Shown piece after piece: positions 994 through 29,675 of a stretch of 39,373 bases of DNA. Source of the DNA: a virus (lineage: Duplodnaviria; Caudoviricetes); IMG/VR virus record IMGVR_UViG_3300035526_000057, positions 1 to 39,373 of that record; one strand, written 5' to 3'. The translations under genes were made by a program, and so were the position numbers. Numbering within the stretch: position 1 is the stretch's first letter; each line of letters opens with the position of its first letter. The notes beneath the pieces are model-generated. The model had not been told where the DNA came from, ran no database searches, and saw only the letters and a program-made list of their open reading frames with translations.

Positions 994-1401
994 ATGAGCG
1001 AAGAAATTCAAGACGCAACAACTAAAACATTTTGGGATAGAGTAGAATGGGATAATGTTGGATTTAACAAGATATCCAAAGAGGACTATCTCAGAATTAG
1101 ATCACTACACCCGAAACTATATGCAACATTCTTAGGGCCAGATAAGAAAACTCAATTCTTTTTATTTAAACCTCTTGGCTGGGGAAAGTATAAAGATATT
1201 AGAGCTAAAGATTTAGATAAAGATACAACAAGAGAGTATATTGTCTCATCATGTATCCTATGGCCTAAGATGGATCCTATCGTAATATCAAACATGGATG
1301 CTGGTGTAATGCTGGCATTAGCAAATCAAATATTAGCAGTTAGTAACTTCATAAAAGATCCAGACCAAGTATTAGAATTTATATTTGAATGCGAAAATTA
1401 A
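994..1401 (+). CDS. Putative tail assembly chaperone
   Basis: 135 aa with a strong RBS (AAGGAG). The pattern F-x-F-K-P-L...EYIVSSCILWP...DAG-V...LANQILAVSNF is chaperone-like, and the gene sits between a tube-like gene and the giant ORFs. Confidence 0.55.
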   Translation: MSEEIQDATTKTFWDRVEWDNVGFNKISKEDYLRIRSLHPKLYATFLGPDKKTQFFLFKPLGWGKYKDIRAKDLDKDTTREYIVSSCILWPKMDPIVISNMDAGVMLALANQILAVSNFIKDPDQVLEFIFECEN

Positions 1402-1402
1402 T

Positions 1403-1993
1403 ATGGCTAAATCATTTAGACTATTAACAGAAAAAATAGATATAAAGTTTAAAACTCTTGGCGCTGAAGAATCTGATAGATATGTATATGCCTTAAAAAC
1501 ATTTCCAAATAAACATGATATTGAAGAGGCTATATTTTTAAAAGTAACTGACTATAATGAATCTGATATATCAGAATTAGATGCTGGTATAATTCCAACA
1601 ATTGCATATCTATCATTAAAACTATCTGGATACCTAAGAACAGACTTTTGCCTTGTTGATAAAATAGACAAGGCAAGAGAAGATATAAAAAACAATCCTT
1701 ATAACAAAATATATTCAATAATAGTAGCTACACAACCACACTATACTCTTGAATCTCTTAGAAAGAAGACTCTTAATGAAGTGCTAGAGCTATTTGCCTT
1801 TAGCGAACTTATAGTTGAAAGAGAAGCTATTGACACTAAAGAGATTAGAGCAAATATCAAAGCTGCACAGAATGAAAGAAAAGCTACAGTTAGTGCAACT
1901 AAGAAAAGTGGTATTAGTAATGTTACAAAAGAAGAAATTGATCTTGTTAAGCAGATGTTAAACGCATCAGAATTTAACCCAGAGATGATTTAA
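1403..1993 (+). CDS. Second tail assembly chaperone-like protein, probable paralog of the upstream gene
   Basis: The ATG at 1403, directly after the TAA at 1399-1401, is more plausible than the TTG at 1385. It shares EEAIF...LDAGIIPTIAYLSLKLSG with the upstream EYIVS...MDAGVMLALANQILAVSN. Confidence 0.5.
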   Translation: MAKSFRLLTEKIDIKFKTLGAEESDRYVYALKTFPNKHDIEEAIFLKVTDYNESDISELDAGIIPTIAYLSLKLSGYLRTDFCLVDKIDKAREDIKNNPYNKIYSIIVATQPHYTLESLRKKTLNEVLELFAFSELIVEREAIDTKEIRANIKAAQNERKATVSATKKSGISNVTKEEIDLVKQMLNASEFNPEMI

Positions 1994-1995
1994 TA

Positions 1996-4900
1996 ATGAA
2001 ACCTATTAACCCCTTTAACAAAGTAATGTCTATTGACCTTGAGGGCACACAGCTACCTGGAGACTTCTATCTCTTTAGCAAGCCTGACGGGTCTTTAGAC
2101 CTTCCTCCTTTAGGAGAAATAACACGAGGATTTGAGCACGTTCATATATTCCAGGCTGGATATATAAGTGGCGATGATATGGTACATTTAGATGTATCTG
2201 AAGCGAAATTCTCTTCTCCTAAAATGCTAGGAGAAAACTTAACTGTACCAGAAGTATTTAAAGATGCTAACGGTGTAACTAGGACATATGTAAGAAACAG
2301 TACCTCATCTATGTCTGAAGAGGGAGTTAATAAGCTATTCAAGTCTTCTTTATCAAAGCTAAGCCCAGCAAAACAAGAAGCATATAAAAAGAAAGTATTG
2401 CCTTATTATCTGATGAAATCAAAGAAGAATACTCAGTTTATTCTTGATGATGGATCCGCGATAGGTTCAATGCCATTTGAAGTATTCTCCAAGTCATATG
2501 AAGATATGCAAAAGATAGCTTCTGACGCTGGGTTTGATTATGCAAAAGTTACTCAGGAAAAGTTTCTTGGCAGAGGAGAGGGATCTTTATTTAAAGCAAT
2601 ATCAGACTTACTAGATGGGGCTACAAAGCAAAAGCCATCTATCATGCGTGCATGGAATCCTTCATACGATGCTCCTGCAATCATTGCATCACTAGAGAGA
2701 TCTGGCAATAAAGATCTTGCTGAAAAAATGCTTAATAGCTATAAGAATGGGCTGTTAAAGATTGAAGGCATCGAGAAGGAGTGGCATGAGATCCTTTGGA
2801 AGTTACTAAAAGAGAATAAAGAAATTACTGGCGATATCAAAATAGGCATGCACCCATTAGCAGCAGCAGCTACAGGTAGGCCAGGGGGAATAGTAAGAAC
2901 CTTTGAAGAGTTTAAATACTCTACATTCTCTTGGAATCAGCGTGACCTTGCAAAGCTATTTCATGGCCATAAAAATCTAAAAGAAATTGGACATATTGCA
3001 TCTACAGATATAAAGCAATCAGAAGCATTCGCCAGCATAATGAAAGATATAAAAGCAGAAGCCATAAATATACATGGCGGAAACATATCTTTTGAAGAAC
3101 TATTTGCATCTGATGACACTAATGGCATATTCACAAAAGCCTTAAACAGAGTAATCAAAAAGGACTTCACAGGCAAAGCTAGGCAAAAAACAGGTAGAGA
3201 ATTAGTTGAAGCAGCAATAGGGCAAGCAAAGAAGACAGAGCTATTCCATAAGCAGCAGTTTGCATCGTGGTTTGCTGCTGACATATCAAAAGCTAAAGGT
3301 GCTAGTTGGAGAAAATATCCAGGATTCTTTGGTGTTGCTGCTGGCTTAGCACTTACTACTTATATGGCGGCTGGAGAAACCCCCCTTAGCTTATCTAAAG
3401 ATGGAACGAGATATTCATCTGGCGTTCCTATGGGTGGAAGTATCTCTGAAAGTGCACAAGGTGGAGGGGATAATATATTCCTAGAGAATGGGTTAGTTAG
3501 GCCGCTGGTAACAGGATTAGTTATTCCGGGCCTAACAGTAGGCGCTATAGGGTATGGTGCTAGCCAGAGATTTAATATCATGTCTAGTGATGTTCCTATG
3601 CCTAGTAACTTTAGAGAGGCAAAAGATCAGTTCTTTAAAACTATGCGGTATGGCATGAAGGTAATTGAGGGACAATTACCAATAGCCAGGGTTTTTGGTA
3701 TCGGATCTCTTACTGATTATATTCGTGGCAGCAGATCTTATATGGTAGATGAGGCAGGTAATGGACTGAGACTATCTAGGTCAGGAAAGCCTATGCCTGG
3801 AAGATTCCATACATTTTCTGTTGTTGATAACGGAAGGATAATAAGAGAATCTAATCCAAGACATGGTACTAATCTAGATAACCTATTATTTAATGTAAAG
3901 AAAAAGAATCCTTCTCAGTATGAGCAATTACAAAATATACTAGCTCCAGACCTATCTAAGATAAATGAAAACATACGTCCAGATAGAAGAAATATACGCA
4001 TCGCATCTACAAACACCGGCAAGACAATAATCTTCTATGATGATTTCAAGTTAGATAAAGCTGGTAATGCTCAAAAGATTACTGGGCTAAGTAAAGAGAA
4101 GGTGCTAATTGATGAGGCTATCTCATTAGCACATGTACGAGATGTTATCCCTCAGGCAGCAAGCAGATCAAGAAGAGCATCTAGTGACAGCTCAAGGATA
4201 GTTTCTTCAAACGTAATAGAAAAATTACATGAGGATCTTGCTAAGTTTAACCCAGAGATTGGGCAAAAGATTAATTTTGAAGAATATCTTTCATCACTTG
4301 AAGTCCCAGGTTTCGTAAGAAACAATGAGGCTATGACTGGGGTATGGAGATCTGCAGAAAAGATTAGATGGGCTCTTGATTTAACATCTAAGGGTGTTGG
4401 AGAAAGGGCAAACAAGTTATTCCCTGAAATATCTAACAGGGTAGCTAGCACACAAACAGTAGCTCTTGTTAAAGATGCTCGTCATTATATGAGACTACCA
4501 GGAGCATTTACTCTTGGCGCTATGGATAAGTTCCTTGAAACTCCTTTTGAATTTCTTGGAATAGATTCTTCTAAAATTACTGGAGCTGCAAATAAATTAA
4601 AAGCTTCTCCAAATATTATATCTAACGTTTTAGGTAAAACGCTTTCTGCTATTGAGTCTCCTCATCTTGGGCTTGGATATTCTAGATATGGTAGTGCTGC
4701 AAAATACCTTGGAGCATTTGGTGTAAAAAGGGTACTTCCTGCATTCCTGGCAGTACAGGCATTTGGGTTAGCTGATCATGTACTTGGTAAAGTAACAGCA
4801 TCTCCCACAGGCAGAGGTCCATTAACAACTTTACCAATCAAAATGTACGAAGGGGCATCTCTACTATATAGTAAGATATCTGATATAGTTGGACTTACAT

Positions 4901-7881
4901 CATATTCTAAATGGCAAGAAAATGTAGCACCTGGTTCAACAGGTCTAGGGATAATGGCTCCTGCTTTAACGGCCACAACATCTATGTATCTAGGGCAGAT
5001 GGCATATAAATATGGCCCTGATTTTATAAAGGATGGGGCTAATAGAATTGGCAGAAAGATGCTAAAGCATCCGCTAATTAAAGCAGCTGCAAGGCCAGAA
5101 GCATATAAGGGTGCTCTTATGAGAAGCCCGGCAGAATCATTTCTGTCATATGTAATAAAGAATCCTAAAAAGGCTATATTTGGATTAAGCCTATTGCCAG
5201 CACTTCCGTTCTTACCTGGATTTCTAGGCTCTAACAAAACATACGAAGAAAGAAAAGCCGAGTTTAAAGGAGATAAGGAAGTAGCAGTTAGAAAGTACAG
5301 AGGATGGTTACTATCATCGTCTCCTTTTGCTGGTGGAAGTGTGAGATCTTGGAGAAAGCATGCGCTTAATGTATTTGAAAGTGATTATGAGAATAGAGGA
5401 GTTCTATATCCTAGCTACTGGGATAAGTTCCTACATAAGATATCTTTAGGTACATATAAGCCATATATGCTAGAGGAATATCATAAAGAATCACAGCCTG
5501 TTTATAAGTCGGCCCCATGGGGCATAAATGTTCCTCTTATTGGCCCTATATTAGCAGCGACTGTAGGAAAGGTAATACCACAAAAGGTTTACCATACACC
5601 GGGAGAGGAAAATGAAGTAGAGACAACTGATCATAGATTCGGACTATCAGCTGGACTAGATAACGGGTCAATTAAAAAGTTTTTTGATAAAAGAGAATCA
5701 ATGGAAGGCTTTATGGTTAGTTTGCATGATCCAACTAGCCTAACATCCTTAAGCTCAAGATTCGCAGATAGCTTAGCAGATCTTGCTGGTTTTAGAGGAT
5801 TTGCACTACAGACAGCATATCAAAAAGTTAGTGGCCAAGCATTGCCTGATGAGTTTGTCCCATATGCACAAGATGCAAGTCAGATGTATAACGCATCTGA
5901 ACTGATGTGGCAATATAATCTTGGTGATATCTCGGTTGTTGGTGGTGAATTTATGAGACGTATTCTTCAGTCATCAGAAAAGAAATGGCAAGAAAATAGA
6001 ATACGAAATGAGCTATATGGAGTTAGCTGGATTCCTCAAGGCGAAAATGGAGGTAAAGATCTAACACATGGTACCACATTTAATAAAGTAGATATGGGAT
6101 GGCTATATGGTGCCAGAAAAGGCTGGGAGTTCTTATATGGAAATGAAGCACGTGGACCTCTAGAGTCTTATGGGGCGCCAGTTAGAACAGAGATCTTAAA
6201 ACATATAGCACCTTACTCTAACCAGTTTAACCAAGAAGCACGATCAACTCTTGAGATGGCATTAACTGATCAACTTGATCCAAAAAGAGAACAGAGGTTC
6301 TATGAAACTCTATTTCAAGTTGCACAAGTAAAAGAGCAGTTATATGCAAAAGCTTCTGAGTTTACATATACATTAGAGACAGATGATGATGAGGGAACTG
6401 TAGATTTCTTAGATGAGGAGTCTGGTGCATTTAGTATTAATGGAAAGAATTATAGATTAGCTGGCGTCTCTCTTAACGAAGCTGATATACGTGCGCGACT
6501 GTTACAAAAGCGTGAATATAAAGATGCTCAGCAACTACACAATGATGTAGATGATATAAGAGAAAGATCTATGAATATTATGCGCAGGCATCTATCAGCA
6601 GGATCATTCGTTAACTTCCAAAAAGCAAAAGCAGAAATGCTACCCGAAACAAGAGGCATGGGACAGGAAGTAATGATGGAAGATCTTGCCCAAGAACTAT
6701 GGGATGCTGGTGCACCGTTTGCAAACACAGGACACTTAGCAACACATAATGTTGCACAGGATAAAGCTGGAATCTCAAGCAAAATAATGGCATCATACTG
6801 GGATGCATTAACCGAAAGAGATTCATTCTGGAATAAGAAGCTTATAAATAAAAGAGATTACCTAGATAGCTACTTATCATCTCAAGTATTTAATAGAGAA
6901 GTTAAGCTATGGACTAGGCCAATAGAACATATCTTAATGCCGTTTATTTCGACCACAATGCATAGTTTATTTGGAGTTGATATCATTCCCTCATTTACTA
7001 AAGAAAGACGCGCTAATCAGCAATATTGGGACGTTATACGGTATATTAAATATAAGCGATTATCAGTAGAGGCTAGCATGGAAGGTGATGCTAGTGCAGC
7101 GGCTTATTATGAGGGCAAATGGCGTAGCACTATGGTTGGTGCTAATCCAACTGACTCAAGCACAAGAGATGAGCTAAACGCATTACCATACGGCGAAAGA
7201 AGATTCTTTGATATGTTCTCTAGCGAATCAGATCCAGAAAAAAGGCAGAAACTCTTTAAGTATCTACCTGAGGGTGCAAAGAGAATATACTCATCTATCT
7301 GGATGTCTAAATTAGCACAAGCAAGTGATGACCCAGAGGTAATAGCACAATTTAATAAGCTTAGAGAATCAGAGGGATGGAACTTATCAGAAGAGGAAGA
7401 GCAAGCATACCTAAGTGAGACTGATGGTACAATCAATAAGGCTGATTGGGCAAGGGCAAAGTTTGTACAAGAATATGCTTCAAAGAACAATCTTCCTGGC
7501 CCAGACTGGATCGGTTGGAATGAAGGTGTTGATTTAGATAACGCACATGTCCTATCATTACTTAAGGGCGATGAGAATGTTCAGGACTATGGATATTTCG
7601 ATAGCAAGATAAGAGAAGCTGTATATGATGAATCTGCACATAAAGCCGTTCTTCAAATAGACTCTAATAGAGCAACCTCGTCTAGGTTAATAAATGCATC
7701 TATGGGATATTTATTAAGTGATAGATCAATAGTATCTGCAACAACGTTGCCAACGTCCTCACAGGTACCAATGGCTCAGGTAGAGATACAGAGCAATAGC
7801 TACAATAAAATTCTTTCAAAATTACACAATTTCGAATCCTCAATCTTAGATGATTCATACATAGATCCGATAGATATTTAA
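1996..7881 (+). CDS. Giant tape-measure-like or ejected protein with an N-terminal DEDDh 3'-5' exonuclease domain and a degenerate SNase-like C-terminal domain
   Basis: 1961 aa. ExoI SIDLEGT (D14, E16), ExoII WNPSYD (D225), ExoIII HIASTD (H333, D338). Several Gly/Ala-rich hydrophobic segments follow. GTVDFLDE..F.ING..YRLAGV...LAQELWDAG at about 6390-6715 is SNase-like. It occupies the tape-measure position after the chaperones. Confidence 0.65.
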   Translation: MKPINPFNKVMSIDLEGTQLPGDFYLFSKPDGSLDLPPLGEITRGFEHVHIFQAGYISGDDMVHLDVSEAKFSSPKMLGENLTVPEVFKDANGVTRTYVRNSTSSMSEEGVNKLFKSSLSKLSPAKQEAYKKKVLPYYLMKSKKNTQFILDDGSAIGSMPFEVFSKSYEDMQKIASDAGFDYAKVTQEKFLGRGEGSLFKAISDLLDGATKQKPSIMRAWNPSYDAPAIIASLERSGNKDLAEKMLNSYKNGLLKIEGIEKEWHEILWKLLKENKEITGDIKIGMHPLAAAATGRPGGIVRTFEEFKYSTFSWNQRDLAKLFHGHKNLKEIGHIASTDIKQSEAFASIMKDIKAEAINIHGGNISFEELFASDDTNGIFTKALNRVIKKDFTGKARQKTGRELVEAAIGQAKKTELFHKQQFASWFAADISKAKGASWRKYPGFFGVAAGLALTTYMAAGETPLSLSKDGTRYSSGVPMGGSISESAQGGGDNIFLENGLVRPLVTGLVIPGLTVGAIGYGASQRFNIMSSDVPMPSNFREAKDQFFKTMRYGMKVIEGQLPIARVFGIGSLTDYIRGSRSYMVDEAGNGLRLSRSGKPMPGRFHTFSVVDNGRIIRESNPRHGTNLDNLLFNVKKKNPSQYEQLQNILAPDLSKINENIRPDRRNIRIASTNTGKTIIFYDDFKLDKAGNAQKITGLSKEKVLIDEAISLAHVRDVIPQAASRSRRASSDSSRIVSSNVIEKLHEDLAKFNPEIGQKINFEEYLSSLEVPGFVRNNEAMTGVWRSAEKIRWALDLTSKGVGERANKLFPEISNRVASTQTVALVKDARHYMRLPGAFTLGAMDKFLETPFEFLGIDSSKITGAANKLKASPNIISNVLGKTLSAIESPHLGLGYSRYGSAAKYLGAFGVKRVLPAFLAVQAFGLADHVLGKVTASPTGRGPLTTLPIKMYEGASLLYSKISDIVGLTSYSKWQENVAPGSTGLGIMAPALTATTSMYLGQMAYKYGPDFIKDGANRIGRKMLKHPLIKAAARPEAYKGALMRSPAESFLSYVIKNPKKAIFGLSLLPALPFLPGFLGSNKTYEERKAEFKGDKEVAVRKYRGWLLSSSPFAGGSVRSWRKHALNVFESDYENRGVLYPSYWDKFLHKISLGTYKPYMLEEYHKESQPVYKSAPWGINVPLIGPILAATVGKVIPQKVYHTPGEENEVETTDHRFGLSAGLDNGSIKKFFDKRESMEGFMVSLHDPTSLTSLSSRFADSLADLAGFRGFALQTAYQKVSGQALPDEFVPYAQDASQMYNASELMWQYNLGDISVVGGEFMRRILQSSEKKWQENRIRNELYGVSWIPQGENGGKDLTHGTTFNKVDMGWLYGARKGWEFLYGNEARGPLESYGAPVRTEILKHIAPYSNQFNQEARSTLEMALTDQLDPKREQRFYETLFQVAQVKEQLYAKASEFTYTLETDDDEGTVDFLDEESGAFSINGKNYRLAGVSLNEADIRARLLQKREYKDAQQLHNDVDDIRERSMNIMRRHLSAGSFVNFQKAKAEMLPETRGMGQEVMMEDLAQELWDAGAPFANTGHLATHNVAQDKAGISSKIMASYWDALTERDSFWNKKLINKRDYLDSYLSSQVFNREVKLWTRPIEHILMPFISTTMHSLFGVDIIPSFTKERRANQQYWDVIRYIKYKRLSVEASMEGDASAAAYYEGKWRSTMVGANPTDSSTRDELNALPYGERRFFDMFSSESDPEKRQKLFKYLPEGAKRIYSSIWMSKLAQASDDPEVIAQFNKLRESEGWNLSEEEEQAYLSETDGTINKADWARAKFVQEYASKNNLPGPDWIGWNEGVDLDNAHVLSLLKGDENVQDYGYFDSKIREAVYDESAHKAVLQIDSNRATSSRLINASMGYLLSDRSIVSATTLPTSSQVPMAQVEIQSNSYNKILSKLHNFESSILDDSYIDPIDI

Positions 7882-7893
7882 TAGGAGATTAAT

Positions 7894-10800
7894 ATGTCAA
7901 CAAACAATCCTTACGAAAGAGAAAACTCTTTTGCAAAAGGTGTATTCAAGGCAGGGGCTGTTGCTGGTGCAGGAGCCCTGTCCTGGAATGCATACAAGCA
8001 TCCAATTAAAACTTATAGTACATTTACTAAGGTTTCCAATAAAGTATTCCCAGTTAAAAACCCAATACTTAATTCTGCTCAATCAAGATACGCAGAGGCT
8101 CAAGAGATTATTGCTACTGCTATGGGTGAGCGCGATAAAAGGGATATGATATTGTCTATGGATAAGAAAAAGCATGCAGCTAAAGTGTTCGGTAAAAGTA
8201 TCGACTGGGGTATTGTTGATCCTTTATATACTAATAGCATGGAAAAAGCTGCATCTAAATATACCTTTACTGACGTTGATCAAATCCTAGATATTAATGG
8301 CAACTCTATAGGAAAGAAAATACAAGATGTATTAGGTCAAAAGTTTAATACATCTGCTACATTAGATAGGTTTGAAGGAACTACAGGTATCTTTAAGATT
8401 GATGGCAAGGAGCTGAAGATAGATTTTGCTAAAAGAGTTGGTAACTCGGAGTCATGGCTATCAAGACGCGGAGAGGCTTTCTACTCTGCGCCCTGGAGAG
8501 CGCACATGACTAAGAGAGGGGATAAGCTTGGGTATGACATGATGGATCCAAACTCTGCTGTACTACATGCCTTGCTTGATGACTTAAATGATGGTGGCAC
8601 ATTAATGTGGCATAATAATAATGATTCAATCAGAAGTATGTATGAAAAGTTTCGAGGAGATGTAGAAAACCCAATTCCCCACAGTCAAGTAATCAGTAAA
8701 ATCAAAGATGAGATCAGAAGGAATAAAACCGGAATAAGGCTTAAGGGCACGGATACAATAAGCGAGTTACAGGAAGCGCTTAACTCATATAATAGATTTG
8801 ACACATTTGTTATAGAGAATAATGATATGTTGCAATCATTATATGGCAGTGAGGCTGTTGTAGATAAGTGGTCTAGATATATGGTAGGGCATGACAAAAG
8901 ATTTGTTGGTGTTGGTGCCGATAGGATATCTGCGCGTGCAGTTAATGTAGATACATCTAAAGGATCAGCACTAAGAAAAGCTTATAACATATTTACAGAT
9001 CTAAGAAAAGATAAGTCGCTTGTAAAGGTAGTAAACTATAATAGATCATCAGCTAAATCCAAATCAGCAAGAGACGTAGAAGATCTAGTTGGCATGTTTG
9101 GTGGATATACGTTAGGCCAAGAAAGAACAGCTGAATTTGGTTTTGCATTCAGAACATCTACATTCCCTCAATACGCAGAAGGCTTTAAGAGTATGAAGGG
9201 TTATAGCTTTATGGATAAACATATCTATTATGATAAAGAAGCCGAACTATCATATCTTGGCGAAAGTATGGAGCATATAAAGTTTGGTGGTATAACTCAA
9301 CATGGCGGAAAAATAGATGAGGCTGCAATTAAAGAACTTAGATTCAATCCATTCATAGATGACAAAACTATGAACAAAAGATTTGGATGGACCAAGTTTG
9401 TACAAGAGAAAGAAGCACTTGTAAAGAATAAGGGCATATATAATATGTCACTAGTAATTAATCCATTTACTACTGAAACAATCCAGGTATCATCTAAATA
9501 CAATAAGCACATGAAGACCCTTGGGCATAAACAGTTTACTGTTGGCACAGTTAATATTAACCCGAACTCAGAAGCATTTGAGGCATCTAAGATAGATTTT
9601 AAATGGCTAGATCATACTGACATATCAGGAGGTGATGGTAAGCCAATTGTTAGAACAAAAAAAGTAAGTATTAAAGATGTGATGGAAGATAAAACTATGT
9701 CTAGGCAGGTGCTTAATGGAGATGCGTGGCTGCAAGTAAACAAAGGAACTGTCCTTGGAGCTAAGAAAGCTGGCATGGAAATTACACCAGACCTTACATT
9801 AGAAGAGGTCCTTAATAAAGACTCAGAGGTTCTAACTAGTAAGTTTAACATGCTTATTGAAAGTGAAGATTATCGTCAAATGCTAGTGGCTACAAAAAGG
9901 ATGCGTAAAACAGAGAAGTATTCTGACTCAGTTAAGTGGATAGGAAGAGTTATCGATAATCCATCCAAGCTTGCACTATGGGGAGCTAGAACAAGAAGCG
10001 CATATAGCTCTGGTGATTCAAAGATAATGAATGATGTGCTTTCACAAGCAGGGTTATACGGTGCAGAAGGAACTATATCATTAGACTTTTATAAGAAGAC
10101 ATTATCGCAATCTGTAAAAGGTAAGGGTGTTGTATTTGGCAAAGATAGTGTTGAGTCGTTGCATTTTATGCAATCAGCACTAGGATGGCAAGCATTACAG
10201 GATACCAATATAGTTCTAGGTGGAGATGCTGCAGTAGACTTTGCAAGATATATAAATGATGGCGAAAAATATATAGATGCATCAGGAAACCTGTCACTAA
10301 CAAGCCTCATGAAAAGAGGGAAGCTAACCTTTAAGCAGCTTACAGATGATACAAAAGCTTTTGGGCAACAATACACGGATACAGTTCAAGTCCTTGGGCG
10401 AGCAAGAAGATCATGGGTAAGAGGTAGAAAATCATCATTGACCACTAAGTTTAGTTCTGATCAAGCAAAAGAAATGGCAGATGTATTAACTGGCCATATT
10501 GAGAAAATAGAAAAGTTTGGTAAGTTCGTAAGTGGAACTGAAGGATCTAAAGAATCAGTTGCACTAGCTAAGCAGATGGTTAAAGGAAACATTGATGTAA
10601 AAGAAGCAATGAAAGCCGCTGGCGTTAGCGCTAAAGAAGTTACCATGGGCATATTCGCAGGAGTAATGCCACAGGAGCAGAACTGGCAAGCACTAGGAGA
10701 AGGATTCAATGAAATGAGAATTTCTTTTAAAAGCTTACCTAGCTTCCTAAACAAGCCAGAAGTGCTAAGAGACCTATCAGTTCAAAGCTTAAATAATACA

Positions 10801-13335: not shown

Positions 13336-13343
13336 GAGGAAAT

Positions 13344-16300
13344 ATGGCACTTTCTAACGAAACTGTACAGAAAATTTTAAGTGATAATAATTTATCTTCA
13401 CCAAATAGATCACAGACAGAAAATCACATAGGAGAAGTAATTACTTTCAGCCCCGGAACTCTAACAACTGATGACGGGGTTGAAATTACTTCTGTAAAAG
13501 TTCTTGACGGTGACACAGTAGTAGATGAGTCTACTGGGCAAAGTTATCGTATATATGGCGTAGATACAAACGAAACAGCTAAATGGAAAAGCGAAGCAGA
13601 AGATTATGCTAACTACCAAAAAGATGTTACTTTTGCAATACTTCAATACGCAGCCGCAACCGGTAAAGAAATTACAATGGTTAGGCAGCGTGATGACGGA
13701 TATGAAAGATGGGTAACTGATATTCAGATAGATGGGACAAGTCTATCTGGAATCTTGGCTGAAAACGGTATTGCACCTGTTAGTGGAGGAGCGGAGTCTA
13801 ATCCTACTCCTAACGGCTTTATATCAAAAAGAGATCTGCAAGATAAAGAAAACAGAGCACAGTCTAACTATAATGGCATCTGGTCACAAGAATATATTAG
13901 ACATCCACTTAAGTATAAAACAACAGATGGAACCTCTGTTACACGCGGAGAGACTGATCCTGCGCTTGGATCTAAAGTTAAAGCAATGAGAATTGCAAAT
14001 GAGACTGATCCCAAAACAAATAGCAATGCGTTAAGGGGACAAGAAAAGATATACAAAGAAGGTATAACAAAGATTGGCGATGTATATCTTGATATTCCTC
14101 CTACTCAAATTAATATCTCTCAGTTAAGAAACTCTTATTCTGTGCCACAGATAGGTGGAGAGTCACGTCCTATATTCAATAGCTCTGCTAGAACAGTAGT
14201 AAAGATAAGTAATGTATTTAGTGGATCATCTCAGATAAATAATGATCTTAAAAGAATATTGTGTCAATTTATATACAACCCAATTAACCTAGTATATTCT
14301 GAAGACATTTATAACAAAGTTATTGGAGATAATAAGTATATAAGAGAAGCTTATAATGCAGATGAAAAGCAATGGTGGGTACCTATGACTATGGACGAGA
14401 TCGTTCTATATACACTAGAGGGTCATCCAGATTGCGTATGTGCAAACATACAAATGTCTGTATTTAACTTTGCTGCATATTTTAATAGTGATCCAAATGT
14501 CAGAATTGAATATCACAAATGCATAGATTATGATTCATCAAAAGAAGTAGAAAATAATCCGCAGATAAATGAAAACACATATACGCTTCACCTAGAAGAA
14601 GCTATCCATCCATATAATATAAGAGTTGAGCAAAAACTAAATCAAGAGAATAGAAGATTTACTCCTGGGGATAGCACAACTACAATCTTTAAGATTGCTG
14701 GCACAGCATCTAGCCTTTCTGTATCTACAAAAGAAAAAGAGGGTGAAGAGCTAGAGCTAAAGAAGGCTAACAAAAAAGAAGGCCTTGATTATCTTGATGA
14801 TAGTATTATAAGAATTGTAAACTCAGAGGTTGAAGGCTTAACAACTGGCGTTCAAGTTCATATGAAGAACAACTGGGCATGGATGCCTGTAATTGGATAT
14901 AGCCAACCAGTTGCTCAATATATTGGACCTGGAGAAACAAGCGTATCTCTTAATATCAAAACAAACCAGAAAGAAATGATATCTAAGCTTCTTTCTACAT
15001 TTGGTGATGTTCAAAATGATAATGGCGTAGAAATATTCTATGACGATAGATATATCGTATCAAATTCTTTAACAAGGCTAGTTGGCTCAGAAATTTGTAG
15101 CATGAACAACTTCTCTGCGTCTAACGTAAATGGACATCCAGGCTGGAGCGATATAAATATAACATTTACAAAAAGCACATATGCAACATCAGAGACAGAG
15201 GACGAAGAGCCCAATCCGTTAGCAGCATTTGATGAGTACTGGGGATTGCAAAGAATACTTGCGCCTATTGGTAACAAAGTAATTGAAGAGGCAATTTACA
15301 GAGAAACAAATCGACTAAGAAAATATATGAAAGATATATCTAAGGAGAATAATGCCATTGGTGCATTATGCTCTGAGAGTGGATTTGATGATGTTGTTAG
15401 GTATTTAGATCCTAGATCAATTGTTGCATATAATAAGTGTTTACAGGTAATCAGAAATCATGCATCCACCTTCAGTGTTCCCTCAGATGAGTCAGTAAGC
15501 TTTAATGTTCTAATGACAAACACTATTGGTCTTAGTTACTTTAAAGGCATTACAGGGCAATATGAAAAGAAAAATATTAAGCTAAACGGGCTGGATATAT
15601 TTGATCGCATGTCTATTGCACGCATGCCTAAAGAGTTTGCAAATAATGCACAGTCATCAGAAGCAATAGCAGCTTATGCATATTATACTAGCAACTCTCT
15701 AAAAGTAGGAGAGGAAGAAAAGAACTTTGATGGCAGCCTTGAAGAAGAGACATTAGCTGGATACCTATTAAGAGACAGGCTTATAAGAGTATATTGCAAC
15801 AGTAAAAGCGTAAAAGGACTAAATGGAAATAGGACATCTTTTGTTAATTTGAATACTGAGCTATGGAATGAGATGAAAAAGATTCAGGAAGGCAGTAAAG
15901 ATAGTCCATATGTAAATCTAAAAATTTACTCTACAAGAGCAAAGACAGTTACATTTGATTTTCCTGGATCAAAATATGATAAGTATAAGACACTTATTAT
16001 AAACTCAATAAAAAATGCGATGGATGATGCGCAAGGGACTTTAGAGGTATATAACAAAAACTGGAGTAAGTTAGCCCTAGCAAAATCAAGAGGATACTCT
16101 ATAGATATAGGATTTATAGGCACAAGAGCAGAGGCAAAATTAATTCAACTTGCATTTAGCCTTGGGTCAACAGGAGAAGCATTTAAGTGGATAAGAGGTA
16201 GGGCTGTAAGTTTCTTAAAAGAAAACCAAGATGAATATCCTAATATCTTTGTCGCAAACTGTTACACAGATAGCGATAACGATAATGTAATGATTCTTGA

Positions 16301-19300
16301 CCCTAAGACAAAAGAAATTCATGTAACAGAAGAAAATTATGACGAGAGACTTAAATGGGTATTTAAGCTTACTCATGCGCCATCACAAGCACTAGAGATG
16401 TTTGATGAGGATGATGTAAAAGAAACTGTACAGGCAATAAAAACAGAAGATTCAGTTGCTGACCCAACAGCAAGATATATTCTTCCGTATGCTGCACATA
16501 GATACTATCCAAAAACCGATTACTTTATTAAACATCATCAGGTACTAAGCGCAAGCGTTGGTGACTGGTTTGTTAATGAATATATTGGTAACCCAGATAA
16601 GCTTTTTGATATGATAGAGAACTCAGTAGAGGATGCAATAAGCCCTCTTTTAAATAAAGAAGCATGGTTATATCCATCTGCTAATCAAGCAAAGCTTAAT
16701 AAAAATATAGTAAGAAAAATAAGCGAAGATGAAAACGATCCTTCAAAAGTAATAGAAGGTATTTGCTTGCCTTTCTTCTCGAAGGACTTTAGTGATATTG
16801 ATAAAAAGGGAGCCCTTAAGAGAGAAAAGGAAGGAGCTATCAATACAGCAATCAGTGTTATCTCTAAAGGAATATATTTTGATGATGACGGTGAAGCGAT
16901 AGAGGAGTTACCAAGCGATATCCCTCTGGATACATTTGCTACTGCATCAATGTGTAGTAAAGGATATTATGACAAGATAAAAGATGTAGGCGGATACATT
17001 AAGAGATATAGGAATAACCTATACAATATCTACTCGCAGAACATTAACACAAGTGGAAAGACAGCATTCTTATATGACTATGCAAATGCGCTGCAAGGAA
17101 AGCAGGTTGGCGGATATGTCAAATTAGCATCTAATGTAGCAAGCAATAGTATAATTGGAGACTTCGATGGATCTTTTGTAAATAGCAATATTGACGTACA
17201 AAGAAAACTTGGCGGATCATACCCTGCTAACTGCTTGATGTTTGCAATGCAAAAATCTCCATTGCTTTTTATGGAGCAGGTTGGAAGATATGCAGAGGAC
17301 GTATCAGTAATAGGGAACAGCTTAGGCTTCAATGAAGTAGAAGCAGACCTAAAGCTTAAGGCTAAAATACTAAGGGTACTTATTCAGGAGAACGCAAAGG
17401 GTATTATCAGAAACCCGTCAACGTCAGGAGAGTCTCTTAAGTATTATAAGAAAACAGAGAAGTGGGAACATATGAATGGTCTCACAACTGAAATGAAAGA
17501 TACTCTTAATAAGCTTCGTGAAGAGATAGGTCTTCCATTTAATATTAATTGTGGATATGCAACAAATGGGCATTCCCCAGAGTCATATCACTATAAGGGA
17601 ATGGCTGTAGACTTTTACATTAAAGAAACTGGCTTTGCAGATGCATATAAGCGCGTTGTTGGTGCTTTAAGTGCATTAGGAATTGCAAACAAAGTAGGGC
17701 TTGGTGTTTACCCGGACTGGAATCATCCTGGATTCCACCTTGATGTCCGTGGGCGTCATGCAAGATGGGGTAGAATTGGCAGCACATATACATCTCTAGA
17801 AAATGCATTAGCACATTATGATAGAAAGCAGAACACAGGGCAGTCGTCATATGAATTAGAGTCAAAAGCTTCTAGCATTGTAACTGACTTAAAAGCTAGG
17901 CTATCTCCATATAAATATGCTTACTATGTAAATGATCAAGATATTAGAGAATATATAAATAGAACAAATTATGTAATGCGGGACAGGGAAAGTCTTTCTT
18001 GGCTACAATCAAGAATAGCGAAGAGAACACAGGCATATTATCCGGCGCGTTTAAGAAATGTAGACAATCAAACCAAAGAGATGGCTGCTAGAAACTCACT
18101 AATCTCCATGCCAGTAACAGTTGGAGTAGAGAACGCATTCCCGACATATAAGATGTATATAATAGAAGAAGATACATCAGATATTAGATACTTCTCACTA
18201 GATGATTATTATGATGTAAGAACATTGCAAGATGTTATGGTTGTTAGATCAAAAGACAACCCGGTTCATACATTAAAAGCTCGCGTAATAATTGATCCTA
18301 AGTACATCTCTGTAAGTAGTAGCGTAAAACAAAAGGTTGGACCACGCAATGAAGATCTAGAAGGAGAAAATGCAGTACCCGCTACACCGGACGTAGATAC
18401 AGATAGAGAAAACTTTTTCAATAAAGGACTAGCTCCTTTTAGGACGGGAATGCGTATATGCTTAAAGCTTGGATATCATAGTGATCCCAGAATATTAAGC
18501 ACTGTATTTATTGGTGTAATCACTGGCCTGCAGGGAAATATGAATACTGGCGTATATGAGGTTGAAGCAAAAGGTGATGGCAGAGAACTAACAGTTCCTC
18601 CTTCTCCAGCGCTAAGACCTAATGTATCTGGTAAAAACTTTGCAGAGATTATATCCATACTAATGAGAACAAACCCTAGCGTTCTTCATTTTGGTAAAGT
18701 ATACGGATCATTCCTAGAGAAGTTCTCAAGAAGGCATTTCGCGTTACTAGCAATGGTTAAACAAGGCTTATTAGATAATGCAATGAAAACATCTTCGTTC
18801 TTAGGGATAGGTGCAGCAGTTGGGTTCTCAGCTGGATACTTACTCCCAGGAAGAGTTCTTTCTAGATCAGCAGTTATGAAGATTCTTGGAGCTGCCGGTG
18901 GAGGCTTAGTGGGAGTAACTACTAGCTTATATATGACATCTGGAGGCATGTACAATAGATCCTCTTTACCTTTTTCGGCAAGAAATAGATATGAAAAATA
19001 TGCAGAATTTGCTAGCAAGATAGATAAATTTGATGGAGCCAAACCATTCATTTTTACTAAGAGATTTATTTCAGCTAGATGGAACAATCTATGTAAATGG
19101 ATGATGGGAAATACATTTAATGTAGCAAAAGCATCTAAGCAAGTAGCTGAGATAATGTATCTAACTTACAAGCAAGGAAACGATCCAATAGATGATAATA
19201 TCTTTGCAGTTGATATATGGAATACTGCATCAATAGAAGATACATTTAATATGCCTATTAATAGCTCAAGATCTATCTGGGAAATTATGTCAGATATAAA

Positions 19301-21215
19301 GAAGCTATATCCTAACTTTGCTCTTGATGTTCGCCCATATGGATCTAGATCTACAGTATTTATGGGGCCGACAGAGTTCAACTATTGGAGAACAGATGAT
19401 CCGCTAGAGGCAATGGCTCCACAGTTACAGCAAATTAGTAACAAGAACTTCTTTAATGACAGCAATTCTTATGGAGCTGCTGTAAAAGATAAGATTCAAA
19501 ACTTAGTAAAAGAAGATCTTTATGGAGATAGAATTGTAGATGGAAAAAATACTGGTAGCTTTATTCCTTTTGTAAAACATCATGTAGCACTATCATCTAG
19601 TGATATTATAATGAATGGCATTAGATCAACGCCATTTAGAGGGTGGAATAATGTTGTAGTTTCTTACTCTAAAAAACCAGAAGACAACGCTAATCCTCCA
19701 GTTGTTATGCAATCAGCAAATGCCAACTTAGACACCAAGGCTATTAGAACTAAGTATGCTAGTATAACTTGGACAGATGATGAAAAGATGGCTAACCAAT
19801 ATGCTCTTGGATTACTTAAAGAGGGCGTTGAAAAGATGTATGGTGGAACACTAGTCGTTAGAGGTAATGATAAGATTGAGCCATATGATAAGATATATGT
19901 ATGTGACACTGTAAATAAAATGTTTGGATGGGTGGAGGTAGAAACCGTAATCCATAAGTTTGACTGTAAGACTGGATTCACTACACACATAGTTCCAAAT
20001 ATGGTGTGCTCAATTAATAATGATGCATATTCTACATTCTCTCAGGTTGCCAGAAGAAACATCATGAATAACCTAGGAAAGATACTTGTTCACGGTGGCG
20101 TTGCATTAGGTAGCTTAGCGGCAGGAAGTGCTGTTGGTAGTGCAATGACAGCATTAGGTGTAACCGCAGGGGCGACTGCAGGGGCAGTTCTTGGAGCAGC
20201 ATTAGCAGTACTATCAATTGGATATGTCGCATACTCTTCATATCAAAGCGTAAAGCAGCAACTAGCAGACATAGAATTTAAAGCAGAGGAAGAAGATAAG
20301 ATAAAGGCAGAAAAAAAAGCTGCCTCTGAAGTGCTAACTGATCTAATGCTTGTGAATATAATGTCTAAAACATATGTTTGTGGATTAGCAGCTAAAGAAC
20401 TGTTAGGCCTAATTGGAACAAAGAACCTAGCACACGCAGTTGCACATCCATTTGACACTGTAGAAAACATAACATATAAAGCTGCAGAAAAATCAGCAGA
20501 AAAATTTAGACTCGGCGCTGCATACATATCTGAACTAAAAGGTAAATTGTCAACTAAGATTGATGACAGAAACTTTAGAAGACTCAGAGATATAATGGAC
20601 GATCAGGCAAAAAAGGTTGGACGCACAATAGACTGGGATGAAATCGCAGATGAGTTTTCAAAAGGCCCAGAGGCTGGAAAAGCAAGGCTTATGAGCGAGT
20701 TTAATGAAACCGTAATGAAGTCGGATAGCTTACCTGATTCTGCAAAAAGTAAATGGTCAAAAATTATAGGCAAAACAGCCATAAAAGAGGCTGATGATAT
20801 AGCGGGAGATGTAGCAAAAAAATCAATTAAGTCTAGCATTACAGAATCAGCAGCGGCAGCAATGAAGAAAATAAATCTTAAAAAAGCTGGATCATCCTTA
20901 CTGGCATTTTTAGCAGCTGGGGCGGAAATGGTTCCTGCGGAATTTGAATTAATGGTAGTAAATGCTATGTTAAAATCTAATGCAATTATTTGCCATCCAG
21001 TATATAGTAAATATGCTATGCTTATGACAGGCCTTGAAGGCTACTCAAATAGCCCATCATATATGTACATAAAAGATATGATCGTAAGCGCACAAGGGGC
21101 CTTGTCTAAAGCAGCAGAGGCTATTGAAGATATGAGCTATGTCTTTAGAATAGGCGATGACCTAAGTGGCATAGAGCAAGCATTTAGCAAAGCTATACCA
21201 GGGGTACTAAAATAA
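13344..21215 (+). CDS. Multidomain baseplate hub protein: thermonuclease (SNase), two tube-like domains, M15 peptidase, gp27/gpD-like hub and membrane segments
   Basis: 2623 aa. SNase: KVLDGDT, YRIYGVDTNE, DGYER, LAENGIA, NGIW. M15: LREEIG.PFNINCGY, SYHYKGMAVD, GLGVY, FHLDVRG..ARW. Hub: GMRICLKLGY...VFIGVIT...VEAKGDG and GTLVVRGNDKIEPYD...VETVIHKFD..TGFTT. Confidence 0.8.
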   Translation: MALSNETVQKILSDNNLSSPNRSQTENHIGEVITFSPGTLTTDDGVEITSVKVLDGDTVVDESTGQSYRIYGVDTNETAKWKSEAEDYANYQKDVTFAILQYAAATGKEITMVRQRDDGYERWVTDIQIDGTSLSGILAENGIAPVSGGAESNPTPNGFISKRDLQDKENRAQSNYNGIWSQEYIRHPLKYKTTDGTSVTRGETDPALGSKVKAMRIANETDPKTNSNALRGQEKIYKEGITKIGDVYLDIPPTQINISQLRNSYSVPQIGGESRPIFNSSARTVVKISNVFSGSSQINNDLKRILCQFIYNPINLVYSEDIYNKVIGDNKYIREAYNADEKQWWVPMTMDEIVLYTLEGHPDCVCANIQMSVFNFAAYFNSDPNVRIEYHKCIDYDSSKEVENNPQINENTYTLHLEEAIHPYNIRVEQKLNQENRRFTPGDSTTTIFKIAGTASSLSVSTKEKEGEELELKKANKKEGLDYLDDSIIRIVNSEVEGLTTGVQVHMKNNWAWMPVIGYSQPVAQYIGPGETSVSLNIKTNQKEMISKLLSTFGDVQNDNGVEIFYDDRYIVSNSLTRLVGSEICSMNNFSASNVNGHPGWSDINITFTKSTYATSETEDEEPNPLAAFDEYWGLQRILAPIGNKVIEEAIYRETNRLRKYMKDISKENNAIGALCSESGFDDVVRYLDPRSIVAYNKCLQVIRNHASTFSVPSDESVSFNVLMTNTIGLSYFKGITGQYEKKNIKLNGLDIFDRMSIARMPKEFANNAQSSEAIAAYAYYTSNSLKVGEEEKNFDGSLEEETLAGYLLRDRLIRVYCNSKSVKGLNGNRTSFVNLNTELWNEMKKIQEGSKDSPYVNLKIYSTRAKTVTFDFPGSKYDKYKTLIINSIKNAMDDAQGTLEVYNKNWSKLALAKSRGYSIDIGFIGTRAEAKLIQLAFSLGSTGEAFKWIRGRAVSFLKENQDEYPNIFVANCYTDSDNDNVMILDPKTKEIHVTEENYDERLKWVFKLTHAPSQALEMFDEDDVKETVQAIKTEDSVADPTARYILPYAAHRYYPKTDYFIKHHQVLSASVGDWFVNEYIGNPDKLFDMIENSVEDAISPLLNKEAWLYPSANQAKLNKNIVRKISEDENDPSKVIEGICLPFFSKDFSDIDKKGALKREKEGAINTAISVISKGIYFDDDGEAIEELPSDIPLDTFATASMCSKGYYDKIKDVGGYIKRYRNNLYNIYSQNINTSGKTAFLYDYANALQGKQVGGYVKLASNVASNSIIGDFDGSFVNSNIDVQRKLGGSYPANCLMFAMQKSPLLFMEQVGRYAEDVSVIGNSLGFNEVEADLKLKAKILRVLIQENAKGIIRNPSTSGESLKYYKKTEKWEHMNGLTTEMKDTLNKLREEIGLPFNINCGYATNGHSPESYHYKGMAVDFYIKETGFADAYKRVVGALSALGIANKVGLGVYPDWNHPGFHLDVRGRHARWGRIGSTYTSLENALAHYDRKQNTGQSSYELESKASSIVTDLKARLSPYKYAYYVNDQDIREYINRTNYVMRDRESLSWLQSRIAKRTQAYYPARLRNVDNQTKEMAARNSLISMPVTVGVENAFPTYKMYIIEEDTSDIRYFSLDDYYDVRTLQDVMVVRSKDNPVHTLKARVIIDPKYISVSSSVKQKVGPRNEDLEGENAVPATPDVDTDRENFFNKGLAPFRTGMRICLKLGYHSDPRILSTVFIGVITGLQGNMNTGVYEVEAKGDGRELTVPPSPALRPNVSGKNFAEIISILMRTNPSVLHFGKVYGSFLEKFSRRHFALLAMVKQGLLDNAMKTSSFLGIGAAVGFSAGYLLPGRVLSRSAVMKILGAAGGGLVGVTTSLYMTSGGMYNRSSLPFSARNRYEKYAEFASKIDKFDGAKPFIFTKRFISARWNNLCKWMMGNTFNVAKASKQVAEIMYLTYKQGNDPIDDNIFAVDIWNTASIEDTFNMPINSSRSIWEIMSDIKKLYPNFALDVRPYGSRSTVFMGPTEFNYWRTDDPLEAMAPQLQQISNKNFFNDSNSYGAAVKDKIQNLVKEDLYGDRIVDGKNTGSFIPFVKHHVALSSSDIIMNGIRSTPFRGWNNVVVSYSKKPEDNANPPVVMQSANANLDTKAIRTKYASITWTDDEKMANQYALGLLKEGVEKMYGGTLVVRGNDKIEPYDKIYVCDTVNKMFGWVEVETVIHKFDCKTGFTTHIVPNMVCSINNDAYSTFSQVARRNIMNNLGKILVHGGVALGSLAAGSAVGSAMTALGVTAGATAGAVLGAALAVLSIGYVAYSSYQSVKQQLADIEFKAEEEDKIKAEKKAASEVLTDLMLVNIMSKTYVCGLAAKELLGLIGTKNLAHAVAHPFDTVENITYKAAEKSAEKFRLGAAYISELKGKLSTKIDDRNFRRLRDIMDDQAKKVGRTIDWDEIADEFSKGPEAGKARLMSEFNETVMKSDSLPDSAKSKWSKIIGKTAIKEADDIAGDVAKKSIKSSITESAAAAMKKINLKKAGSSLLAFLAAGAEMVPAEFELMVVNAMLKSNAIICHPVYSKYAMLMTGLEGYSNSPSYMYIKDMIVSAQGALSKAAEAIEDMSYVFRIGDDLSGIEQAFSKAIPGVLK

Positions 21216-29674: not shown

Positions 29675-29675
29675 T

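What the first reader, a model, noticed from the sequence alone, without database searches (positions are those of the whole stretch)
1996..21215. Three consecutive giant tail-module proteins, each carrying a nucleic-acid enzyme: a candidate injected takeover cassette
Seen: 19 kb with gaps of only 12 and 8 nt encodes exonuclease plus SNase-like (1961 aa), RNAP-like (1813 aa) and SNase plus peptidase plus hub (2623 aa). Each protein has Gly/Ala-rich hydrophobic segments. Established: this slot normally holds one non-enzymatic tape measure protein, sometimes with muralytic domains, followed by hub genes. Inference: the tail delivers a coordinated set that breaches the wall, spans the membrane, degrades or processes nucleic acid, and transcribes the incoming genome, possibly pulling it in. 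I do not recognise this combination as a characterised system.
Basis: inference. Interest (0 to 1): 0.85.

Follow-up and report, generated by a model that had tools for sequence, protein, structure and literature searches.

The report
Phage tail gene hides RNA polymerase
In an uncultured contractile-tailed phage, the giant gene where the tail's length-setting protein belongs keeps the catalytic signature and predicted fold of a cell-type RNA polymerase and lies next to a giant with exonuclease motifs, so the phage likely injects its own transcription enzyme through the tail.

Summary
The three ORFs (A 1961, B 1813, C 2623 aa) are real. They are the gp145/146/147 tail block of the Bacillus phage 0305phi8-36 / Acinetobacter ME3 lineage, so the three-giant layout is in print (Hardies 2007).

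B, in the tape-measure slot, is a single-chain two-barrel RNA polymerase. R-x-P and DxDxD are present in 14 of 14 related loci that reach the motif, and the top 17 of 48,161 structures matching its AlphaFold model are all RNA polymerases. Cultured WH1, KLEB27-3 and ME3 keep the motif unannotated; 0305phi8-36 and MTATph1 lack it.

A keeps all five DEDDh acid/His residues in 44 of 44 close homologs (motif evidence only); its SNase-fold domain is degenerate. C is a hub with an intact SNase here, degenerate in about half its relatives, and a swappable wall hydrolase.

A and B are almost always cysteine-free and C is not. So two proteins, not three, are likely ejected.

Best reading: a P23-45-like injected virion polymerase in a myophage. 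Activity and ejection are untested. This scan noted the same system on other DNA; the fold support is added here. New variant of a known kind.

The parts
994..1993 (+). Two small genes (135 and 202 aa) in the tail-assembly-chaperone position
   Evidence: Homologs precede gene A in the related loci; same position as annotated tail chaperonins gp143/gp144, ME3_33, WH1 gp097/098. Function inferred from position.
1996..7881 (+). Gene A, 1961 aa, gp145 ortholog, zero cysteines; likely ejected virion protein
   Evidence: tblastn to WH1 gp096, ME3_35 and 0305phi8-36 ORF145; 88 homologs; cysteine counts.
2008..3045 (+). DEDDh-type 3'-5' exonuclease motifs in A (D14, E16, D225, H333, D338)
   Evidence: D14, E16, H333, D338 in 44 of 44 rows; position 225 is D in 34 and E in 10. 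Motif-based; fold not modelled.
4279..7878 (+). Conserved, mostly helical core of A with no clear known fold apart from its SNase-fold domain
   Evidence: AlphaFold pLDDT 85, pTM 0.83; fold searches.
6376..6768 (+). Degenerate SNase-fold (OB) domain inside A
   Evidence: Z 8.4, rmsd 2.3 over 98 residues to Tudor-SN; Z 7.0 to staphylococcal nuclease; catalytic acids absent.
7894..13335 (+). Gene B, 1813 aa, tape-measure slot (gp146 position), zero cysteines; single-chain two-barrel RNA polymerase
9091..10713 (+). Beta-like half of B (about residues 400-940) with invariant K692, R701, K750
   Evidence: Model 1-540 aligns to beta/Rpb2 at Z 10-11.5; the three residues are in 23 of 23 rows that cover them.
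10846..12528 (+). Beta'-like half of B (about residues 985-1545) with R1289-x-P1291 (11758-11766) and the D1327/D1329/D1331 loop (11872-11886)
   Evidence: Model 586-1146 aligns to beta'/Rpb1 at Z 8-9.4; invariant in 12 of 12; profile hits phiKZ and AR9 beta' at this motif.
13006..13332 (+). Conserved C-terminal end of B (hydrophobic helix, Pro-rich linker, terminal motif); candidate baseplate anchor
   Evidence: Invariant columns; similar layout in WH1, KLEB27-3, 0305phi8-36, MTATph1. Role inferred.
13344..21215 (+). Gene C, 2623 aa, gp147 ortholog, expanded baseplate hub, 20 cysteines
13479..13889 (+). SNase domain of C, catalytic residues intact in this copy (D55, D57, R69, D74, E77, R122)
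   Evidence: Pfam PF00565 7e-8; degenerate in about half the relatives.
14061..15263 (+). Conserved region of C, possibly distal-tail (Dit)-like
   Evidence: Only weak hits in relatives: Dit_like 0.023 in gp147, DUF6046 4e-8 in P0146. Tentative.
17466..17843 (+). M15-type zinc peptidase (wall hydrolase) inserted in C
   Evidence: relatives carry SLT, glucosaminidase, NlpC/P60 or M23 instead.
18135..20078 (+). Hub region of C (gp147 / T4 gp27-type)
   Evidence: PHROG 20474 and 8809, tblastn to annotated hubs; gp27 assignment from Hardies 2007 passages.
20082..20243 (+). Two Gly/Ala-rich hydrophobic segments of C
   Evidence: Kyte-Doolittle 1.5 and 1.9.

Best explanation
Gene B encodes a protein with the catalytic motifs and predicted fold of a one-chain, cell-type (two-barrel) RNA polymerase in the tape-measure slot of a 0305phi8-36-lineage myophage, and it is likely packed in the particle and ejected with protein A to transcribe the first phage genes. 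Steps: (1) C builds the baseplate hub and its M15 domain cuts peptidoglycan on contraction (hub shown by homology; wall cutting inferred). (2) A and B, both cysteine-free, are held unfolded or partly folded in the tube or head and cross the envelope (inferred; both cores are predicted compact, too large for a tube lumen when folded, lumen size recalled). (3) B refolds and transcribes pre-early genes, likely including the second polymerase seen elsewhere in two close relatives (inferred from P23-45). (4) A's exonuclease acts at the same place and time; my single most likely role is trimming the 3' end of the entering DNA (about 35%), ahead of RNA 3' trimming or proofreading (25%), attack on host nucleic acid (20%) or other/inactive (20%). 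These splits are judgement. Odds by step: B is an active RNAP 0.9; A and B are virion proteins 0.9; both are ejected 0.75; B also sets tail length 0.5.
For: Motif invariance across sequences only 12-13% identical and in 14 of 14 loci that reach it. AlphaFold pLDDT 83, pTM 0.82; top 17 of 48,161 chains are RNAPs, beta-like then beta'-like in order. Conserved basic residues in the beta-like half. KLEB27-3 gp034 weakly hits Pfam RNA_pol_Rpb1_2 (E 0.015). gp145 and gp146 noted as virion proteins by MS. Cysteines: 41 of 43 A homologs and 18 of 18 full-length B homologs have none, while 28 of 28 C homologs have 8-21 and two second-RNAP candidates have 11 and 15. Exonuclease and RNAP share one chain in WH1 and KLEB27-3. 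A second RNAP candidate lies outside the tail genes in both close relatives examined. 0305phi8-36, whose gp146 lacks the motif, is the only lineage member hit by the stand-alone RNAP gp99. Precedent: P23-45 gp96.
Against: No activity, localisation or ejection data exist for any member. The one ortholog with MS evidence (gp146) has no RNAP motif and no significant sequence similarity to B; orthology rests on position, the C-terminal layout and a weak link through WH1 (E 0.004-0.02). Fold scores are modest (Z at most 11.5; Foldseek PDB best E 1.2e-3). The exonuclease has no library or fold confirmation (hhalign to B-borne exonucleases E 0.0055, probability 6.6%). The exonuclease and RNAP occur without each other in some relatives. 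Five shorter window ORFs (93-404 aa) also have no cysteine. MTATph1's B is interrupted by an insertion sequence. The N- and C-terminal flanks of B (about 400 and 270 aa) are short for a tape unless the polymerase itself is unfolded.
Confidence: 0.7

Rival explanations
1. One reading: all three giants are delivered as one coordinated set; C's SNase and A's exonuclease degrade or process nucleic acid in the cell and B's transcription pulls the genome in.
For: Conserved order. In this copy every catalytic motif is intact except A's SNase-fold domain. C has hydrophobic segments near its C-terminus. Chaban et al. propose transcription coupled to translocation for gp96.
Against: C has 8-21 cysteines and hub homology, as a baseplate-resident protein would. 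Its SNase residues are kept in only 13-19 of 29 rows. The enzyme domains come and go independently.
Confidence: 0.12
2. A and B are head-packaged ejection proteins, like N4 or crAss-like virion polymerases, that merely lie in the tail operon; B is not the ruler of tail length.
For: Both cores are predicted compact (pTM 0.82-0.83). The RNAP is central in B, not terminal as in gp96. B lengths vary from 1367 to 2537 aa.
Against: They follow the tail chaperone pair directly and no other long candidate tape lies in the window. Hardies 2007 assigned gp146 as tape measure from tail length. This rival is compatible with most of the best explanation and differs only in packaging site.
Confidence: 0.3
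3. B's polymerase fold is a non-transcribing relic or has another job (structural, primase-like, or RNA-templated), with early transcription done by the host enzyme.
For: gp146 and MTATph1 B do without the motif. QDE-1 and RDR2 are among the fold matches. ME3 has a DHDQD variant.
Against: The aspartate triad, R-x-P and three basic residues are invariant while the rest drifts to 13-25% identity.
Confidence: 0.08

Closest known systems
Thermus phage P23-45 gp96, tape-measure-fused virion two-barrel RNAP, with gp64 non-virion RNAP (Chaban et al. 2024, PMC10770324; read parts 1-3 of 7 of the text and searched the supplements)
   Same: Single-chain two-barrel RNAP in the tape-measure gene; a second RNAP elsewhere; some relatives lack the fused RNAP. 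B's model matches the P74-26 gp62 paralog at Z 7.6.
   Different: P23-45 has a long non-contractile tail and a 5,002-aa tape with the RNAP at the N-terminus. Here the tail is contractile, the RNAP fills the middle of an 1,813-aa protein, and an exonuclease-motif partner (A, or fused in WH1/KLEB27-3) goes with it. 'Exonuclease' and 'nuclease' do not occur in that paper's main text. No sequence similarity found.
Bacillus phage 0305phi8-36 gp145/gp146/gp147 and BtI1/BwK1 elements (Hardies et al. 2007, PMC2147016; passages read)
   Same: Same gene order and sizes; A is homologous to gp145 and C to gp147. The paper already notes swappable wall hydrolases and an SNase on the BtI1 hub.
   Different: In the passages read gp146 is only a tape measure and the RNAP is gp99, on the other genome arm (ABS83659.1, cited by Iyer 2021, is gp99). 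gp146 lacks the DxDxD loop but has exonuclease motifs.
Cultured lineage members WH1 gp095, Edson, KLEB27-3 gp034, ME3_36
   Same: R-x-P..DxDxD in the slot-B protein of WH1, KLEB27-3 and ME3 (core profile E 6e-10, 4e-8, 1e-5 among 375 proteins); Edson is 94% identical to WH1 over the full length.
   Different: Annotated only as structural or hypothetical. WH1 and KLEB27-3 fuse the exonuclease to B; none was detected in ME3 A or B.
N4 virion RNAP and crAss-like phi14:2 gp66 (mentioned in PMC10770324; details recalled)
   Same: Large virion polymerases ejected into the host; N4's is cysteine-free (recalled).
   Different: Short-tailed phages with head-packaged enzymes; N4's is T7-like, not two-barrel. 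gp66 was not among the 50 rows shown.
Streptomyces Sle1 tape-measure-related contractile-injection effectors (PMC13277306; abstract only)
   Same: A tape-measure-like scaffold in a contractile tube carrying an exchangeable functional domain.
   Different: A bacterial nanomachine with no polymerase and no genome delivery.

Membership tests
Two-barrel RNA polymerases | DxDxD metal-binding loop preceded by R-x-P in a double-psi beta-barrel | tested here: met
   model residues 729-960 match stand-alone DPBB structures at rmsd 2.1.
Two-barrel RNA polymerases | Second (beta-type) barrel supplying conserved basic residues | tested here: met
   Model 1-540 matches beta/Rpb2; K692, R701, K750 invariant in 23 of 23 covering rows. 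Their one-to-one equivalence to the E. coli beta residues is inferred from order, not read from a superposition.
Two-barrel RNA polymerases | Template-dependent RNA synthesis | not testable with these tools
   Needs purified protein.
P23-45 gp96 family (TMP-fused vRNAP) | Detectable sequence homology to gp96 | tested here: not met
   No tblastn hit in 50,697 phage records at E 0.01 and no PDB sequence hit. It works like gp96 but is not filed in that family.
P23-45 gp96 family (TMP-fused vRNAP) | RNAP at the N-terminus of a very long tape in a non-contractile tail | tested here: not met
   RNAP spans about 400-1545 of 1813 aa; Baseplate_J gene and sheath genes in relatives.
P23-45 gp96 family (TMP-fused vRNAP) | Flat, clamp-less structure | tested here: inconclusive
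   gp96 itself was not listed among the rows shown; model coordinates could not be inspected.
Tape measure protein | Position after the tail chaperones and before the hub | tested here: met
   applies to both A and B.
Tape measure protein | Length sets tail length | not testable with these tools
   No tail lengths for this phage; gp146 assigned by length correlation in print.
DEDDh 3'-5' exonucleases (domain in A) | ExoI D-x-E, ExoII N..D, ExoIII H-x4-D in order | tested here: met
   44 of 44 rows.
DEDDh 3'-5' exonucleases (domain in A) | Profile or fold match to the DnaQ/RNase T family | tested here: inconclusive
   No Pfam, PDB-profile or Atlas hit for A; MTATph1 B hits RNase_T at 5e-5; this region was not folded.
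Staphylococcal nuclease, active (domain in A) | DGDT and D40-equivalent metal ligands | tested here: not met
   fold present.
Staphylococcal nuclease, active (domain in C) | Pfam match and catalytic D/R/D/E/R residues | tested here: met
   true for this copy, not for about half the relatives.
0305phi8-36 / ME3 lineage tail module | Order chaperone pair, gp145-like, giant, gp147-like hub, small genes, baseplate J, with homology in A and C | tested here: met

The most novel reading that the evidence does not exclude
Across a wide myophage lineage (Bacillus, Acinetobacter and many uncultured hosts) the 'tape measure' is itself a new family of RNA polymerase, stored unfolded as the tail ruler and refolded after ejection, working with an ejected 3'-5' exonuclease and a 1,200-residue partner of unknown fold as a membrane-docked machine that trims, pulls in and transcribes the genome. 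One chain would be both ruler and enzyme.
Probability: 0.3. Interest if true: 0.85.

Novelty: new variant of a known kind. Interest (0 to 1): 0.66.

Why it matters
It would extend tape-measure-borne virion RNA polymerases from one Thermus siphovirus group to contractile-tailed jumbo phages, in a family that sequence libraries miss. Cultured phages annotated as 'structural protein' here (KLEB27-3 gp034, WH1 gp095, Edson) make it directly testable. It raises a concrete question: how a compact enzyme of about 1,100 residues passes a tail tube and refolds. The exonuclease partner, found fused or adjacent, is not part of the described P23-45 system.

Tried and rejected
Single-sequence searches with B found nothing outside close kin: phages tblastn, word-based protein search (one 94% relative), IMG/VR patterns, PDB phmmer; ESM Atlas gave one unnamed cluster at 0.77. 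Pfam and PHROGs do not recognise A or the RNAP of B; B's weak Tape_meas_lam_C row (E 0.076) was ignored.

The full-length B profile missed WH1, KLEB27-3 and ME3 in whole-genome search (0 of 5 cultured records; 2 of 5 IMG/VR records), so blanks from that tool mean little. PF05183 (RdRP) rang in 0 of 5 records and 0 controls: uninformative.

Attempts to confirm A's exonuclease by library all failed. No known fold was found for the helical core of A beyond generic bundles; the model was searched whole, so this is not evidence of a new fold. gp96 and gp66 were not among the fold rows shown.

I rejected the idea that the published 0305phi8-36 RNAP is gp146: it is gp99. Microcystis LMM01/MaMV-DC structural hits were not resolved: five large LMM01 ORFs in 78-125 kb had no motif, one being cut short. 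No tRNA in the window. No complex prediction was run. Host not determined.

Full report
OBSERVATION. The window is one AT-rich, single-strand operon of a virus record. A (1996-7881, 1961 aa), B (7894-13335, 1813 aa) and C (13344-21215, 2623 aa) are open and closely spaced as stated. Downstream lie an HNH gene, Baseplate_J (E 2.4e-13) and further tail genes.

LINEAGE. A hits WH1, Edson, ME3 and 0305phi8-36 'virion structural' genes (6 records, E 3e-8 to 3e-6). C hits their hub genes plus KLEB27-3 and MTATph1. B hits nothing in 50,697 phage records. The five annotated regions fetched show the same order: chaperone pair, three giants, small genes, baseplate. In the 0305phi8-36 record gp145 and gp146 are noted as identified in virions by MS; the gp147 note does not say so. 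Hardies 2007 (passages) calls gp146 the tape measure from tail length, calls gp147 an expanded T4 gp27 hub with exchangeable wall hydrolases, and notes an SNase on the BtI1 hub. The three-giant layout is therefore known.

PROTEIN B. It carries R1289-x-P1291 and D1327-x-D1329-G-D1331. A profile of A fetched 14 IMG/VR and 3 metagenome loci. In 14 of these 17 the next gene extends through the motif region and all 14 have R-x-P..DxDxD (11; L014 under TAG=Q; L020 and L022). L008, L015 and L021 are cut short. In 12 aligned full-length sequences, six only 12-13% identical to B, the only invariant columns are G935, R1289, P1291 and the three aspartates. phmmer over 1.84 billion proteins gave 27 hits. 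Of these 27 plus L014's protein, 23 of 28 show the motif; the 5 without are 233-905 aa pieces, which I did not inspect further. The pattern appears in 13 of 20,000 shuffles, 0 of 43 A and 0 of 28 C homologs, and 17 of 18 full-length B homologs under a strict spacing rule. The B profile's best PDB sequence rows are phiKZ and AR9 beta' at this motif (E 0.03-0.08, weak).

AlphaFold2 of B(400-1599) on 29 sequences gave pLDDT 83.4, pTM 0.82. Foldseek PDB had no row under E 0.001, but all 50 rows shown are RNA polymerases. The Foldseek-independent search of 48,161 chains ranks 17 RNA polymerases first: model 1-540 on beta/Rpb2 (Z 10.4, rmsd 5.0, 288 aligned), model 586-1146 on beta'/Rpb1 (Z 9.4, rmsd 5.3, 327 aligned), and the whole model on P74-26 gp62 (Z 7.6) and QDE-1 (Z 7.5), followed by bare double-psi barrels at rmsd about 2. 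These Z values are modest, but the order of halves and the motif agree. K692, R701 and K750 are invariant in the 23 of 29 rows that cover them. In BFVD the best matches include two entries whose lengths are half those of WH1 gp095 and ME3_36 (identity inferred from length), a 'minor tail protein' of ctnpt50 and Microcystis phage proteins. Among five cultured phages examined, WH1, KLEB27-3 and ME3 have the motif in slot B; 0305phi8-36 and MTATph1 do not. gp99, the published RNAP of 0305phi8-36, hits no other lineage member among 7 records. Both close relatives whose genomes I scanned (G001 whole, G005 most) have a second R-x-P..DxDGD protein outside the tail genes (1030 and 1207 aa, mutual E 2.5e-12).

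PROTEIN A. Of 88 hits I aligned the 44 full-length close ones, the window's own included, leaving out 2 truncated and 42 distant. D14, E16, H333 and D338 are invariant and position 225 is always acidic, in a region about 20-30% identical to the query. That is the DEDDh pattern (recalled), but no library confirms it, and the profile comparison with B-borne exonucleases is weak (E 0.0055). The domain profile found 3 of the 42 distant hits, and not ME3, WH1, 0305phi8-36 or MTATph1 A. The same three motifs sit in slot B of WH1 and KLEB27-3, on the same chain as the RNAP, and of 0305phi8-36 and MTATph1, without it (MTATph1 matches Pfam RNase_T at 5e-5). A(762-1961) folds confidently (pLDDT 85, pTM 0.83); only 1461-1591 matches a known fold, SNase (Z 8.4; Foldseek probability 0.7 at E about 2), without its metal ligands.

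PROTEIN C. Of 36 hits I aligned 28 close ones with the window, dropping the window's own fragment and 7 distant. SNase residues are all present in the window but in only 13-19 of 29 rows each. The M15 motif is in the window and, as a variant, in 1 of 28. Others carry SLT, glucosaminidase, lysozyme, NlpC/P60 or M23.

WHICH ARE EJECTED. A has no cysteine in 41 of 43 homologs (86,215 residues, two cysteines in all) and B none in 18 of 18 (31,870 residues). Six of seven distant B proteins and all A and B chains of the five cultured phages also have none. C has 8-21 in 28 of 28, and the two second-RNAP candidates 11 and 15. Absence of cysteine is a recalled trait of ejected proteins such as N4 vRNAP; I took the lead from earlier scan notes and tested it here. 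It separates A and B from C. It is indirect, and five shorter window ORFs also lack cysteine.

MECHANISM. Shown: genes, synteny, motifs, predicted folds, cysteine pattern. Inferred: C stays as hub and cuts wall; A and B are packed unfolded or in the head and ejected; B transcribes pre-early genes, including a second polymerase, as gp96 does in P23-45; A's exonuclease processes DNA or RNA ends at entry. Whether B is also the ruler is open. The parts are modular, not a fixed cassette.

LITERATURE. Seven full-text searches found P23-45 as the only tape-measure RNAP among the papers listed. Chaban's supplements have no ME3 or WH1 entry and the two-RNAP table no 0305phi8-36 entry. Passages of PMC5795418, PMC8878043, PMC12390700 and PMC13282480 and the whole of PMC5000817 assign no RNAP to these genes. 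Iyer 2021's supplement and Thomas 2007 were unavailable, and subscription papers are not searched. This scan has noted the same or similar systems on other DNA; these are unchecked AI notes and not independent support.

VERDICT. A new variant of a known kind: an unannotated family of likely virion two-barrel RNA polymerases in the tape-measure slot of 0305phi8-36-lineage myophages, with a mobile exonuclease-motif partner. Interest 0.66.

Noticed in passing
L014:8729-21643: A relative reads TAG as Gln: the three giants open only under table 15.
   Followed up: partly
L046:10826-14449 (+) and G001 17155-20247 (L032/L033): Second, cysteine-containing two-barrel RNAP candidates (1207 and 1030 aa) outside the tail module of two close relatives.
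   Followed up: partly
L057:17453-19849 (-) and 15114-16190 (-), phage ME3: A 798-aa ORF of the same length as a BFVD structural hit of B, with no DxDxD, lies near a 358-aa ORF with DVDGD: possibly a split second RNAP.
   Followed up: partly
L004:16539-18781, Moorella phage MTATph1: A transposase plus ATPase pair interrupts the slot-B gene, leaving 1309-aa and 313-aa pieces.
   Followed up: no
L029:7827-14980 (KLEB27-3) and L015:8084-12629: Gene A is split in two; in KLEB27-3 an HNH-like gene lies between the halves, possibly in an intron.
   Followed up: no
window 22470-23210: HNH/homing endonuclease gene inside the baseplate genes; a 47% identical copy sits between the chaperone genes of L009.
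   Followed up: partly
window 34414-35262: Cas4-like exonuclease gene among tail genes (PHROG 1706, 4e-23).
   Followed up: no
P0016, P0024, P0062, P0067, P0068, P0073, P0078, P0079, P0081, P0089: A homologs carry inserted REase/Vsr-like domains or inteins with homing endonucleases.
   Followed up: no
L017:7259-12769; P0082; P0086: Distant A homologs carry further Pfam-recognised SNase domains at other positions.
   Followed up: no
BFVD A0A075BUT7_2, A0A7J4_2, A0A8S5SD80_1: Microcystis phage MaMV-DC and LMM01 proteins and a ctnpt50 'minor tail protein' match B's model structurally; not located or checked.
   Followed up: partly
window 27506-34132: Three consecutive 717-768 aa genes, one with an F5/8 type C domain, after the baseplate genes.
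   Followed up: no
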